Made by a program: the position numbers. From Escherichia coli (GTDB taxonomy: Bacteria > Pseudomonadota > Gammaproteobacteria > Enterobacterales > Enterobacteriaceae), in NCBI RefSeq assembly GCF_045037415.1, contig NZ_CP173438.1: a DNA stretch of 64,000 bases; one strand, given 5' to 3'. Below are positions 9,001 to 12,000 of this stretch, in pieces; position 1 is the first letter of the stretch, and every line of letters starts with the position of its first letter.

Positions 9001-12000
9001 AATTCGCCAAAAATTTCCTCGCCGAAACGGGCGACATCCGCGCGGCTGTGCGGCAGTATATGGCTGAAGTGGAGTCCGGCGTTTATCCGGGCGAAGAACA
9101 CAGTTTCCATTGAGGAGTGACGTTGTGTTAATTATCGAAACCCTGCCGCTGCTGCGTCAGCAAATCCGCCGCCTGCGTATGGAAGGTAAGCGCGTGGCGC
9201 TGGTGCCCACCATGGGTAACCTGCACGACGGCCATATGAAGCTGGTCGACGAAGCCAAAGCCCGCGCCGATGTGGTCGTCGTCAGTATTTTCGTTAACCC
9301 AATGCAGTTTGACCGCCCGGAAGATCTGGCACGTTATCCACGGACCTTGCAAGAGGACTGCGAAAAGCTGAACAAACGTAAAGTGGATTTAGTTTTCGCG
9401 CCTTCGGTAAAAGAGATCTACCCGAACGGTACAGAAACCCACACCTATGTTGATGTTCCTGGTCTTTCCACCATGCTGGAAGGTGCCAGCCGTCCGGGAC
9501 ATTTTCGCGGCGTTTCGACTATTGTCAGCAAGCTGTTCAACCTGGTCCAGCCGGACATCGCTTGCTTCGGCGAAAAGGACTTTCAGCAACTGGCGCTGAT
9601 CCGCAAAATGGTTGCCGATATGGGCTTTGATATTGAGATTATCGGCGTACCGATTATGCGCGCCAAAGACGGTCTGGCGCTGAGTTCCCGTAACGGTTAT
9701 CTGACGGCGGAACAACGCAAAATTGCGCCCGGTCTGTACAAGGTTTTAAGTTCGATTGCCGACAAATTGCAGGCTGGCGAACGGGATCTCGATGAAATTA
9801 TTGCCATTGCCGGGCAAGAACTGAATGAAAAAGGCTTCCGCGCCGATGATATTCAGATTCGTGATGCCGACACATTGCTGGAAGTCTCTGAAAACAGCAA
9901 ACGCGCAGTGATTCTGGTAGCCGCCTGGCTTGGCGATGCTCGCCTGATCGACAACAAAATGGTCGAACTGGCGTAATGCTTAACTGGCGCTACGGCTGAT
10001 GGCGCCAGCTATTCATTGCCACGTTATCTGTAAGCGATTATTCATAACGCAGACAACTTAGTTAATCATTTTATCAATCTCAGCAAGAGGTAAATTTGCC
10101 ATCTCTGCAACGTCTTCCCGAGACATTCCTTTACTCAGAAGACGCAGGGCCAGTCTTACCTTCTGGAGTCCCTCTTTATATCCCTTCTGAAATCCCTTCT
10201 CTTCAAACCACTGCGCCAACGTCTGCCTGGTTTCTCTCCGTGTCTTTATTTCCATATGTTCCCTTAATTATCTGGTCAGTTAACAATAACAATTATCTGG
10301 CTATAACTGATAATGCAGATAACTTAGCTAATCAGCTTATCAACCTCAGCAAGAGGTAAATTTGCCATCTCTGCAACGTCTTCCCGAGACATCCCTTTAC
10401 TCAGAAAACGCAGGGCGAATTCCTGTCTTACTTCCTGTCTAACCTCTTGTATTACCTCCTGTCTTACCTCCTGTCTTACCTCCTGCCTTCCCCTCTCTTC
10501 AAACCACTGCGCCAGCGTCATCATAGACTCCCCTCCCGTTTCCCTGTCTCGCAACACACCATAAAACAAATCCGCTTGTTCAGTATGACCGCGTTGCAGC
10601 ATATAGTTTTGCATGGCAACTAACTGACTTCCGCTAGTGTACCCTTCGTCAATCAGCGTGACCAGTTGCTCCAGCAATAACATTAAGTCGCGCTGGCGAA
10701 TATGCTTTTGCAGTAGTTCGAGAATCGCAATCCGCCGGTGCTGCATGATTTCGTCATCCGGCGTGATGGTGATATCCACCAGCGGGAAAGGGTTGTTGTA
10801 AACGCGTCGCGCCAGCTCCGGCGAGTAAAACATATCAAACCAGCACATTGAGAGCGGATAAGGTGTGGCCTCGCCCTGATAAAACAGAATCGGCACCACC
10901 AGCGGCAGCTTATCGTGATCCGCCTCCAGATGCCGGTGCATGGCGGCAATGGCATAGCGCATCATGCGAAAGGTCATTTTCTTATCCGGCTTGCTTTGGT
11001 GTTCAATCACAACATGCAGATAACCCGTACTACCCTGCATCTGTACGGAATAGAGCACGTCAGTGCTGTGCCCTTTCAGGCTTTCTTCAATAAAACTCCC
11101 CGACTCAAGATGCAGCGTGTCGAGGTCACACAGTTCGCGTAGCTCCGCTGGCAAATGGATATCCAGAAAGTCGCGAGCCGTTTCCGCATGCATTAAAAAT
11201 TGTTTAAACACCGCATCATGCGGTGTGGTACTCGGTGCATCCATCTCCCCTGCCTTCCGTGTTGTCTTGCGTGAAGGCAGTATCCAGTCAAGGTGTGCCG
11301 TCGTCAGCCGCCTCTTTAGTGTTTACCGAGCAGCGTTCAGATAAATTTCAATTGGTTACAGGCGTTACATGGCACGCTTCGGCACGGTACGCAAACTGCT
11401 GATGCAAATGCCGTCAGATGAGTAGACACTAAACAAAAATCGGGCAATACTGCGTGAGAATTTCCTCAAAGCAGGCATCGCCTGCTTCGTTAACGACAGG
11501 GTAGAAAGGTAGAAGTTATGATTCGCACGATGCTGCAGGGCAAACTCCACCGCGTGAAAGTGACTCATGCGGACCTGCACTATGAAGGTTCTTGCGCCAT
11601 TGATCAGGATTTTCTTGACGCAGCCGGTATTCTCGAAAACGAAGCCATTGATATCTGGAATGTTACCAACGGCAAGCGTTTCTCCACCTATGCCATCGCG
11701 GCAGAACGCGGTTCGAGAATTATTTCTGTCAACGGTGCGGCGGCCCACTGCGCCAGCGTCGGCGATATTGTCATCATCGCCAGCTTCGTTACCATGCCAG
11801 ATGAAGAAGCTCGCACCTGGCGACCCAACGTCGCCTATTTTGAAGGCGACAACGAAATGAAACGTACCGCGAAAGCGATTCCGGTACAGGTTGCCTGATT
11901 GTTATCCCTGCGGCTGGTTACTCACCAGCCGCGACATCGTCTCCAGCGAATCTGTTCTTAAGATATAAAGTCGTTTTAGTAACAACGGATTATCCCCCGG

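What the first reader, a model, noticed from the sequence alone, without database searches (positions are those of the whole stretch)
10421..10492. 12-bp tandem repeat tract inside yadD encoding (RQEV)n
Six imperfect head-to-tail 12-bp units on the minus strand encode RQEVRQEVRQEVIQEVRQEVRQE near the C-terminus of the Rpn-family protein. The unit length is a multiple of three, so copy-number changes would keep the frame and alter linker length, a possible source of strain-to-strain length variation.
Basis: seen in the sequence. Interest (0 to 1): 0.4.

Follow-up and report, generated by a model that had tools for sequence, protein, structure and literature searches.

The report
Variable repeat in rpnC toxin-antitoxin gene
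The 12-base repeat is real and its copy number does differ between E. coli strains, but it is the already published hypervariable four-amino-acid repeat of the rpnC nuclease gene, which sets which internal antitoxin can pair with which toxin.

Summary
Window 10420..10494 (minus strand) holds six 12-nt units plus one codon. They encode RG-RQEV-RQEV-RQEV-IQEV-RQEV-RQE, residues 251-275 of a 306-aa Rpn-family protein lying between panD and panC (rpnC, formerly yadD).

The predicted variation is also real. Among 5,426 complete E. coli genomes the gene length runs 873 to 957 nt in steps of 12. Twelve fetched alleles have tracts of 27, 39, 51, 63, 75, 87, 99 and 111 nt. One metagenome scaffold matches the window over 10,921 bp with no mismatch apart from a single 12-bp unit inside the tract.

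This is not new. Zhong et al. 2023 (PNAS, PMC10400941) showed that rpn genes are gene-within-gene toxin-antitoxin systems. A small C-terminal protein, RpnS, is made from an internal start and blocks the full-length nuclease, RpnL. A four-amino-acid repeat in its first helix varies between strains, most of all in RpnC. In K-12 RpnC, only a repeat-matched RpnC_S neutralised RpnC_L.

The internal ribosome-binding site and ATGATG are conserved here (10537..10519). The tract is therefore a specificity-setting helix rather than a passive linker.

Verdict: already known, low interest. A free-standing second small-protein gene (rpnC_Ss, 10058..10255) is a side observation.

The parts
10324..11244 (-). 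rpnC (yadD) coding sequence, 306 aa: the full-length nuclease/toxin RpnC_L
   Evidence: ORF. TIGR01784 271 bits. PF04754 E=3e-86. 100% identical to CDSs annotated rpnC in RefSeq. Flanked by panD and panC.
10624..11226 (-). N-terminal YhgA-like PD-(D/E)xK-type nuclease domain (aa 7-207)
   Evidence: Pfam Transposase_31 PF04754, model positions 1-201 of 203, so the match is end to end and not truncated.
10528..10537 (-). Shine-Dalgarno-like GGGAGGGGAG in front of the internal start
   Evidence: Read. Conserved, with at most one substitution, in all 13 alleles compared, including K-12. RpnC_S was detected experimentally in K-12 (PMC10400941, Fig. 2D, G).
10519..10524 (-). Internal translation start ATG-ATG (Met241/Met242 of RpnC_L)
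   Evidence: Invariant in all 13 alleles. The homologues keep the M-M-T-L-A motif. Its use as a start is shown only in the literature for K-12 and is inferred here.
10324..10524 (-). Nested gene rpnC_S: 66-aa small protein (antitoxin), same frame as rpnC
   Evidence: A profile of this domain hits PDB 7TH0_A, 'Recombination-promoting nuclease RpnA', at E=3.6e-5. The AlphaFold2 model has three helices: 4-42, 47-53 and 58-65; mean pLDDT 74.9.
10420..10494 (-). Hypervariable tract: six 12-nt units plus GAA, encoding RGRQ EVRQ EVRQ EVIQ EVRQ EVRQ E (aa 251-275 of RpnC_L, residues 11-35 of RpnC_S)
   Evidence: TRF. Unit parsing. Length varies from 27 to 111 nt among alleles.
10474..10485 (-). The single 12-bp unit present in the window but absent from an otherwise identical 10.9-kb scaffold (L013)
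   Evidence: Window 5324..16244 against L013: 0 mismatches, one 12-bp gap. Its placement within the run of identical units is arbitrary.
10447..10458 (-). Marker unit GAGGTAATACAA (EVIQ), which allows expansions to be placed on either side of it
   Evidence: RQEV-type alleles have 1-4 units between the first unit (RGRQ/RVRQ) and this marker, and 2-3 units after it.
10330..10386 (-). C-terminal two short helices of RpnC_S (helix-turn-helix-like), conserved GMSREDVAEMANLPLAEVDKLI
   Evidence: Model helices 47-53 and 58-65, pLDDT 80-87. Best-conserved columns of alignment A1. Non-significant Foldseek matches are all HTH DNA-binding domains.
10058..10255 (-). rpnC_Ss: free-standing 65-aa second copy of the small protein, 68 nt downstream of rpnC
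   Evidence: TIGR01784 C-terminal part, E=3.4e-9. Annotated 'RpnC/YadD family protein' in some RefSeq records. Described in PMC10400941 (Fig. 2I). At least 80% of the query is present in 1,552 of 5,426 genomes.

Best explanation
The tract is the hypervariable four-amino-acid (12-nt) repeat of the RpnC toxin-antitoxin gene-within-a-gene.

One reading frame gives two proteins. RpnC_L is the full-length 306-aa PD-(D/E)xK-type DNA endonuclease, the toxin. RpnC_S is a 66-aa protein started at the internal ATGATG at 10524..10519, the antitoxin.

The repeat begins 11 residues into RpnC_S, inside its long first helix. In the homologous RpnA_S crystal structure that helix forms the dimer interface. By standard alpha-helix geometry, each RQEV unit lengthens the helix by about 6 A and turns everything after it by about 40 degrees. 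Helices with unequal unit numbers therefore cannot pair along their whole length.

Slipped-strand mispairing, or unequal exchange between the near-identical 12-nt units, adds or removes whole units. This changes toxin and antitoxin together and creates new, mutually exclusive pairing specificities among strains and paralogues.

Shown here: the repeat, its in-frame copy-number variation, a very recent one-unit change, conservation of the internal start, and homology of the domain to RpnA_S.

Taken from the literature, for K-12 RpnC and with an added KGIE unit: RpnC_S is made, and only a repeat-matched RpnC_S blocks RpnC_L.

Inferred: the same holds for this RQEV-type allele, and slippage is the mutational mechanism.
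For: - The repeat is real and far above chance.
- The host gene is rpnC.
- Length varies in steps of 12 nt across complete E. coli genomes. Tracts of 27/39/51/63/75/87/99/111 nt occur in 12 alleles.
- Protein P0001, recorded on 401 contigs, equals the window protein at all 281 non-tract residues and lacks one RQEV.
- Its scaffold L013 matches the window over 10,921 bp with zero mismatches and one 12-bp indel inside the tract.
- The Shine-Dalgarno sequence and ATGATG are conserved in 13 of 13 alleles, including K-12.
- The RpnC_S profile hits the RpnA_S crystal chain 7TH0_A at E=3.6e-5.
- In the AlphaFold2 model the whole tract lies in helix 4-42.
- Homologues in E. albertii, Salmonella and other enterobacteria carry analogous variable 4-aa units at the same position.
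- The published mechanism is in PMC10400941 (abstract, Fig. 2, Fig. 4B-D, Discussion) and the commentary PMC10400984.
Against: - No expression or toxicity data exist for this allele.
- The published matching experiment used K-12 RpnC and a KGIE unit, not RQEV units.
- The model's confidence in the repeat region is only moderate (pLDDT 61-64).
- Foldseek found no significant structural match.
- A simple sigma-70 consensus scan found no internal promoter on the minus strand upstream of the internal start.
- Anti-phage activity has been shown only for a plasmid paralogue (RpnP2), not RpnC. PADLOC has no model that matches.
- RQEV contains Q, which only loosely fits the paper's 'one hydrophobic plus three charged residues or glycine' rule.
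Confidence: 0.85

Rival explanations
1. The tract is a neutral length polymorphism. It is a tolerant low-complexity spacer that expands and contracts by slippage without affecting function, which is the first reader's 'linker' reading.
For: Many lengths coexist in healthy strains. Model confidence in the tract is moderate.
Against: In K-12 RpnC, adding one unit to only one partner abolished neutralisation, and adding it to both restored it (PMC10400941, Fig. 4D). The tract is predicted to be helical and continuous with the conserved WFEE and FALR anchors. The same position is hypervariable in distant Rpn homologues with different unit sequences, which points to a selected property rather than one slippery sequence.
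Confidence: 0.08
2. The repeat acts at the nucleic-acid level. Each unit carries a near-perfect Shine-Dalgarno motif (CAGGAGGTAA), so copy number tunes ribosome pausing or internal ribosome loading on the rpnC or rpnC_S message. This could be in addition to the protein-level role.
For: CAGGAGGTAA occurs three times in the tract and nowhere else in the 64 kb. The chance expectation is 0.06.
Against: No ATG, GTG or TTG lies at start-codon spacing after these motifs (sequence). K-12-type KGIE units and Salmonella units lack the motif yet vary in the same way. The purine-rich sequence follows simply from R/Q/E/V codon choice.
Confidence: 0.04
3. It is an on/off phase-variation (contingency) locus, in which repeat changes switch the gene off by frameshift.
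For: Two truncated protein clusters end shortly after WFEE, as if frameshifted in the tract. These are P0022 with 161 members and P0028 with 71 members, both from Logan read assemblies.
Against: The unit is 12 nt. All length differences seen in complete genomes are multiples of 12 and leave the ORF open. The truncated forms come from short automatic assemblies and may be assembly errors.
Confidence: 0.02
4. It is an assembly or sequencing artefact of a repetitive region.
For: Short tandem repeats are error-prone in assemblies.
Against: The exact window allele recurs at 99% identity or more in 411 complete-genome records. Every step of the length series is seen in independent finished genomes. 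The tract is only 75 nt, shorter than any read length in use.
Confidence: 0.01

Closest known systems
E. coli K-12 RpnC (YadD) RpnC_L/RpnC_S intragenic toxin-antitoxin (Zhong et al. 2023, PMC10400941)
   Same: It is the same gene at the same locus (panD-rpnC-panC). The internal Shine-Dalgarno and ATGATG are the same. The hypervariable tract sits between the same WFEE and FA[LQ]R anchors. The nucleotide mismatch rate outside the tract is about 6%.
   Different: K-12 has 4 units (KGIE KGIQ QGRQ EVSQ E; 300 aa), and the expansions in K-12-like alleles are of KGIE/KGME units at the 5' side. The window allele has replaced these with RG and expanded the RQEV unit at the 3' side (6 units; 306 aa). 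It also carries the extra downstream rpnC_Ss gene, which K-12 lacks.
RpnA_S crystal structure (PDB 7TH0)
   Same: It is a homologous small C-terminal domain (profile E=3.6e-5). It has a three-helix architecture with a long first helix, and the published repeat insertion point lies in that helix (PMC10400941, Fig. 4C; model).
   Different: K-12 RpnA_S is 49 residues in the crystal, and its first helix lacks the long repeat run. A single-sequence search with RpnC_S does not find it. Foldseek does not rank it.
EcoR124I / EcoR124II type I restriction specificity subunits (TAEL repeats). Zhong et al. cite this as a precedent.
   Same: A 12-bp unit encodes four residues in a helical spacer. A change of one unit changes molecular specificity.
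   Different: It is an unrelated protein (HsdS). The repeat sets the spacing of a DNA recognition site, not toxin-antitoxin pairing. That system has two or three units, against a range of 2-9 in the alleles sampled here.
Simple-sequence contingency (phase-variable) loci of Neisseria and Haemophilus
   Same: A tandem repeat inside a coding region mutates much faster than surrounding DNA (0 SNPs in 10.9 kb against one unit change).
   Different: Those repeats (1-5 nt units) switch genes on and off by frameshift. Here the unit is 12 nt and every observed variant stays in frame.

Membership tests
Rpn (YhgA-like) recombination-promoting nuclease family; orthologue RpnC/YadD | N-terminal YhgA-like PD-(D/E)xK nuclease domain (Pfam PF04754 / TIGR01784) | tested here: met
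   PF04754 E=3.3e-86, aa 7-207, model 1-201 of 203. TIGR01784 271 bits against a cut-off of 52.1.
Rpn (YhgA-like) recombination-promoting nuclease family; orthologue RpnC/YadD | Chromosomal position between panD and panC, as in K-12 | tested here: met
   panC 9110..9976 (+) and panD 11518..11898 (+) flank the ORF. The order is the same in K-12 and 11 other genomes.
Rpn (YhgA-like) recombination-promoting nuclease family; orthologue RpnC/YadD | DNA endonuclease activity / toxicity of the long form | not testable with these tools
   This can only be inferred from the intact full-length domain. The biochemistry was published for RpnA (PMC10400941).
RpnL-RpnS gene-within-gene toxin-antitoxin system (Zhong et al. 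2023) | Internal ribosome-binding site and start codon that give a separate C-terminal small protein | tested here: met
   At sequence level, GGGAGGGGAG plus ATGATG is conserved in 13 of 13 alleles, including K-12. Actual initiation was not testable here. It was shown for K-12 rpnC by ribosome profiling and SPA tagging (PMC10400941, Fig. 2D, G).
RpnL-RpnS gene-within-gene toxin-antitoxin system (Zhong et al. 2023) | Small domain homologous to RpnA_S (three-helix bundle, dimerising through helix 1) | tested here: met
   Profile hit to 7TH0_A at E=3.6e-5. The model has three helices. Dimerisation itself was not tested.
RpnL-RpnS gene-within-gene toxin-antitoxin system (Zhong et al. 2023) | Four-amino-acid repeats starting 8-20 residues after the internal Met, with number varying among strains of one species | tested here: met
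   The repeat starts at residue 11 of RpnC_S. There are 2 to 9 units among 12 E. coli alleles. The gene length series is 873-957 nt.
RpnL-RpnS gene-within-gene toxin-antitoxin system (Zhong et al. 2023) | Unit composition: one hydrophobic residue plus three charged residues or glycine | tested here: inconclusive
   In RQEV, V is hydrophobic and R and E are charged, but Q is polar and uncharged. This is close to the published rule but not exact.
RpnL-RpnS gene-within-gene toxin-antitoxin system (Zhong et al. 2023) | RpnS neutralises RpnL only when repeat numbers match | not testable with these tools
   Published for K-12 RpnC plus or minus one KGIE unit (PMC10400941, Fig. 4D). Not tested for RQEV alleles.
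Anti-phage defence system | Protection against phage infection, or a match to a curated defence model | tested here: not met
   No PADLOC-DB v2.0 family matches either protein. The library is dated 2023 and may not hold Rpn. Defence was shown experimentally only for plasmid RpnP2 (PMC10400941). The function itself is not testable here.
Phase-variable simple-sequence contingency locus | Repeat-number changes shift the reading frame and switch expression on and off | tested here: not met
   The unit is 12 nt. All 12 fetched alleles and all full-length spans sampled differ by multiples of 12 and keep an open frame.

The most novel reading that the evidence does not exclude
The free-standing rpnC_Ss gene (10058..10255) carries its own independently varying tract. 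In the window and all 8 fetched loci that carry it, that tract is never length-matched to the neighbouring rpnC tract (15, 19 or 29 residues against 9 to 37). Under the published matching rule it should therefore not neutralise its neighbour.

The most novel reading still open is that rpnC and rpnC_Ss form a two-part 'length code'. In it the orphan small protein would serve as immunity against a non-self RpnC_L, for example an incoming allele or a phage- or plasmid-borne copy. Alternatively it could act as a decoy that regulates release of the toxin. A further new detail would be that RQEV and KGIE expansions are two separately evolving zones of the same helix.
Probability: 0.1. Interest if true: 0.5.

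Novelty: already known. Interest (0 to 1): 0.2.

Why it matters
The repeat is biologically meaningful. It is a fast-mutating protein-length switch that, in the published K-12 RpnC experiments, sets which antitoxin can silence which nuclease toxin in a widespread, candidate anti-phage system. All of this was published in 2023, with RpnC as the main experimental example.

This window adds three things:
- independent confirmation from about 5,400 complete genomes;
- a clean example of a one-unit change on a 10.9-kb SNP-free background, so the tract changes faster than point mutations accumulate over about 11 kb;
- the observation that the RQEV-expanded allele class travels with a length-mismatched orphan small-protein gene.

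None of this would surprise a specialist.

Tried and rejected
- A single-sequence phmmer search of RpnC_S against PDB sequences did not find RpnA_S. A profile of 35 homologues was needed.
- Foldseek of the RpnC_S model against the PDB gave no match at E<=0.001. It returned only generic HTH domains, so no fold claim is made beyond 'three helices, HTH-like'.
- The sigma-70 consensus scan found no promoter-like site on the minus strand inside rpnC upstream of the internal start. Reading 10500..10760 by eye gave nothing convincing. The internal transcription start reported in the literature could therefore not be located here.
- PADLOC gave no hit.
- The paper's supplementary alignments (Fig. S6) are not held as text. 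I could not check whether RQEV-type alleles are shown there.
- I considered a full census of repeat number in all 5,426 genomes using synthetic allele queries. I rejected it because the summary counts cannot separate gapped, split and partial alignments. I used the evenly spaced 60-row sample instead. Its gene lengths in nt, each with its row count, were: 903 with 33 rows (55%, counting one row with a 1-nt shorter span), 921 with 6, 897 with 5, 945 with 5, 933 with 4, 873 with 2, 885 with 2, 909 with 1, and 957 with 1. One further row was a partial match.
- The artefact and phase-variation (on/off) readings were considered and rejected (see the rival explanations).
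Full report
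**1. The observation**

The minus strand of window 10420..10494 reads AGGGGAAGGCAG GAGGTAAGACAG GAGGTAAGACAG GAGGTAATACAA GAGGTTAGACAG GAAGTAAGACAG GAA. Tandem Repeats Finder calls it at 10421..10489: period 12, 5.8 copies, 85% matches, no indels, score 103. It is the strongest short-period array in the whole 64-kb window. Thirty triplet-preserving shuffles of the window never exceeded a score of 66.

**2. The gene**

The ORF is an Rpn-family protein. TIGR01784 scores 271 bits against a cut-off of 52. Pfam PF04754 'YhgA-like' covers aa 7-207 end to end at E=3e-86.

The ORF lies between panC (9110..9976) and panD (11518..11898). It is 100% identical to CDSs annotated rpnC in complete E. coli genomes such as strain SA186. 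The window is therefore E. coli chromosome, and yadD = rpnC is correct.

**3. Does the copy number vary?**

Yes. A megablast of the gene against 5,426 complete E. coli genomes found it in 5,424 of them.

In the 60 rows taken at even steps down the ranking, the gene lengths were as follows. They are read from the record spans, and where a span was ambiguous or ended short of the stop codon, from the fetched CDS annotations.

| Gene length (nt) | Rows | Note |
|---|---|---|
| 873 | 2 | |
| 885 | 2 | UTI89 type |
| 897 | 5 | O157 type |
| 903 | 33 | K-12 type, includes one row with a 1-nt shorter span |
| 909 | 1 | |
| 921 | 6 | the window's length |
| 933 | 4 | |
| 945 | 5 | |
| 957 | 1 | |

The remaining row was a partial match.

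I fetched 12 alleles and parsed the tract between the invariant anchors WFEE and FA[LQ]R. It is 27, 39, 51, 63, 75, 87, 99 or 111 nt long, so every step of 12 from 2 to 9 units is represented.

The odd unit GAGGTAATACAA (EVIQ) serves as a marker. RQEV-type alleles have 1-4 units between the first unit (RGRQ/RVRQ) and this marker, and 2-3 units after it. Changes have therefore happened at more than one place in the tract.

The clearest case comes from protein P0001, which is recorded on 401 contigs. It equals the window protein at all 281 residues outside the tract and lacks one RQEV. I fetched a scaffold that carries it (L013). Over 10,921 bp (window 5324..16244) it has zero mismatches to the window and a single 12-bp gap inside the tract. 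This is a very recent one-unit gain or loss in place. It is not replacement of the allele by recombination.

**4. What the tract is**

This phenomenon is published. Zhong et al. 2023 (PNAS 120:e2307382120, PMC10400941) made the following points:
- All five E. coli K-12 rpn genes contain an internal translation start from which a small C-terminal protein (RpnS) is made.
- RpnS binds and blocks the toxic full-length endonuclease (RpnL).
- RpnA_S crystallises as a dimer of three-helix bundles held together by the long first helix.
- RpnC has the highest repeat numbers among E. coli strains.
- When one extra unit (KGIE) was added to K-12 RpnC_S or RpnC_LS alone, neutralisation was lost. When it was added to both, neutralisation was restored (Fig. 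4D).
- The authors call the DNA units 'dodecamer repeats' and state that the mechanism of their expansion is unknown.

The accompanying commentary (PMC10400984) summarises the same points.

**5. Does the window allele have the defining parts?**

*Internal start.* GGGAGGGGAG (10537..10528) is followed by ATGATG (10524..10519). This is conserved in all 13 alleles compared, including K-12, with at most one substitution in the Shine-Dalgarno. The nested ORF 10524..10324 gives a 66-aa RpnC_S, and the repeat starts at its residue 11.

*Homology to RpnA_S.* A profile built from 35 RpnC_S-type domains (alignment A1) hits PDB 7TH0_A, 'Recombination-promoting nuclease RpnA', at E=3.6e-5. The single sequence did not find it.

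*Structure.* An AlphaFold2 model (mean pLDDT 74.9; 61-64 in the repeat region, 80-87 in the C-terminal part) places the whole tract in one helix (residues 4-42), followed by two short helices. Foldseek against the PDB gave only non-significant HTH-type matches. That is in line with the paper's HHpred remark but is not evidence on its own.

*Variation at the same position in other species.* Homologues from E. albertii, Salmonella and other enterobacteria carry different four-residue units at the same position, such as KGIE, GMQK and GKRE, again in varying numbers.

**6. How it most likely works**

Shown here:
- One frame holds both a complete nuclease gene and a nested small ORF with a conserved start.
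- The two share a tandem 12-nt tract.
- The tract changes by whole units faster than point differences accumulate in about 11 kb of flanking DNA.

From the literature, for K-12 RpnC: RpnC_S is made and must match RpnC_L in unit number to block it.

Inferred:
- By standard alpha-helix geometry (1.5 A and 100 degrees per residue), each unit adds about 6 A and a 40-degree rotation between the N-terminal anchor (MMTLAQWFEE) and the C-terminal helices. Helices of unequal length then cannot pair at both ends.
- Runs of identical units (two adjacent GAGGTAAGACAG units in the window, three in L003, L009 and L011) allow slipped-strand mispairing.
- Because toxin and antitoxin are read from the same DNA, a slip changes both together. 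This keeps the pair matched while insulating it from other alleles and paralogues.

I put 0.85 on this overall reading. The main uncertainty is that nothing has been measured for RQEV-type units.

**7. Rival explanations**

- *Neutral spacer polymorphism.* This fits the coexistence of many lengths but conflicts with the published add-one-unit experiment and with recurrence at the same helix position across distant homologues.
- *RNA-level role.* CAGGAGGTAA, a near-perfect Shine-Dalgarno, occurs three times in the tract and nowhere else in the window (chance expectation 0.06). However, no start codon follows these motifs, and other unit types lack the motif.
- *On/off phase variation.* The 12-nt unit and the all-in-frame length series exclude it.
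- *Assembly artefact.* The window allele recurs at 99% identity or more in 411 complete-genome records, which excludes it.

**8. What differs from K-12**

K-12 has KGIE KGIQ QGRQ EVSQ E (four units, 300 aa). K-12-like alleles expand KGIE/KGME units at the 5' side, reaching 324 aa in P0019 and P0020. The window belongs to a second allele class, which matches the window at 95% nucleotide identity or more in about 1,300 records. In this class the 5' units are reduced to RG and the 3' RQEV unit is expanded.

This class also carries a free-standing 65-aa copy of the small protein 68 nt downstream (10058..10255). Zhong et al. describe it as rpnC_Ss, 'in some E. coli strains'. I found at least 80% of it in 1,552 of 5,426 genomes.

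Its own tract also varies (proteins of 65, 67, 71 and 81 aa). In the window and the 8 fetched loci that carry it, it is never the same length as the neighbouring rpnC tract. Under the published rule it should then not neutralise its neighbour. I could not explain this, and it is the only part of the locus that still looks open.

**9. Verdict**

The finding is correct in observation and in its central prediction. It describes the known hypervariable repeat of a known intragenic toxin-antitoxin gene. Novelty: already known. Interest: 0.2.

Noticed in passing
window 10058..10255 (-): A free-standing 65-aa gene duplicates the C-terminal small domain of RpnC (rpnC_Ss in Zhong et al. 2023). It is absent from K-12, UTI89 and O157. 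At least 80% of it is present in 1,552 of 5,426 complete genomes. Its own four-residue tract varies (proteins of 65, 67, 71 and 81 aa). In the window and the 8 fetched loci that carry it, its tract is never length-matched to the adjacent rpnC tract.
   Followed up: partly
L004 1642..1887 (strain VCSW5): This strain shows the reverse arrangement. RpnC has the shortest tract (2 units, 290 aa), while the downstream rpnC_Ss has the longest (KGFQ KAYQ EAYQ EAYQ EVRQ EVRQ EVRQ E; 81 aa), including a third unit type, AYQE.
   Followed up: no
L008 about 1700 onward (isolate AF10): An IS3-family transposase is inserted shortly after the start of rpnC_Ss and truncates it. The sequence diverges from the window after ...CAGGCAGAC.
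   Followed up: no
window 10452..10485 (-): CAGGAGGTAA, a near-consensus Shine-Dalgarno sequence, occurs three times in the tract, once in each of three consecutive units, and nowhere else in the 64 kb. The chance expectation is 0.06. No start codon follows at the usual spacing.
   Followed up: partly
proteins P0022 (259 aa, 161 members) and P0028 (243 aa, 71 members): These RpnC clusters from Logan read assemblies end a few residues after WFEE (…WFEEREDRRKGRR and …WFEEKELRRELRRD), as if frameshifted at the start of the tract. They could be real pseudogenes or assembly errors in the repeat.
   Followed up: no
row H49 (NZ_AP042495.1): This K-12-type allele spans 891 nt where its neighbours span 892. 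A 1-nt deletion would frameshift rpnC in this strain.
   Followed up: no
Pfam column: A second Pfam family, PF27070, is on record for many K-12-like and Salmonella homologues. It is not on record for the RQEV-expanded alleles (P0001-P0025). The Pfam-A scan of the window protein did not report it either. The long repeat may break the match to a C-terminal-domain model. I could not retrieve the family's name.
   Followed up: no
window 31319..32133 (-): A 303-bp tandem repeat has 2.7 copies at 80% identity and a TRF score of 896. It lies in the 630-aa ORF 30262..32154 (-), which is aceF, the pyruvate dehydrogenase E2 component (NF008814, 1100 bits). The copies are the three lipoyl domains, which is an ordinary feature.
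   Followed up: yes
window 27711..27760: This is a short imperfect tandem repeat, period 15 or 21, about 2.2 copies, with unit ATCATGACCATGACCATCATC (TRF scores 45-64). It was not examined.
   Followed up: no
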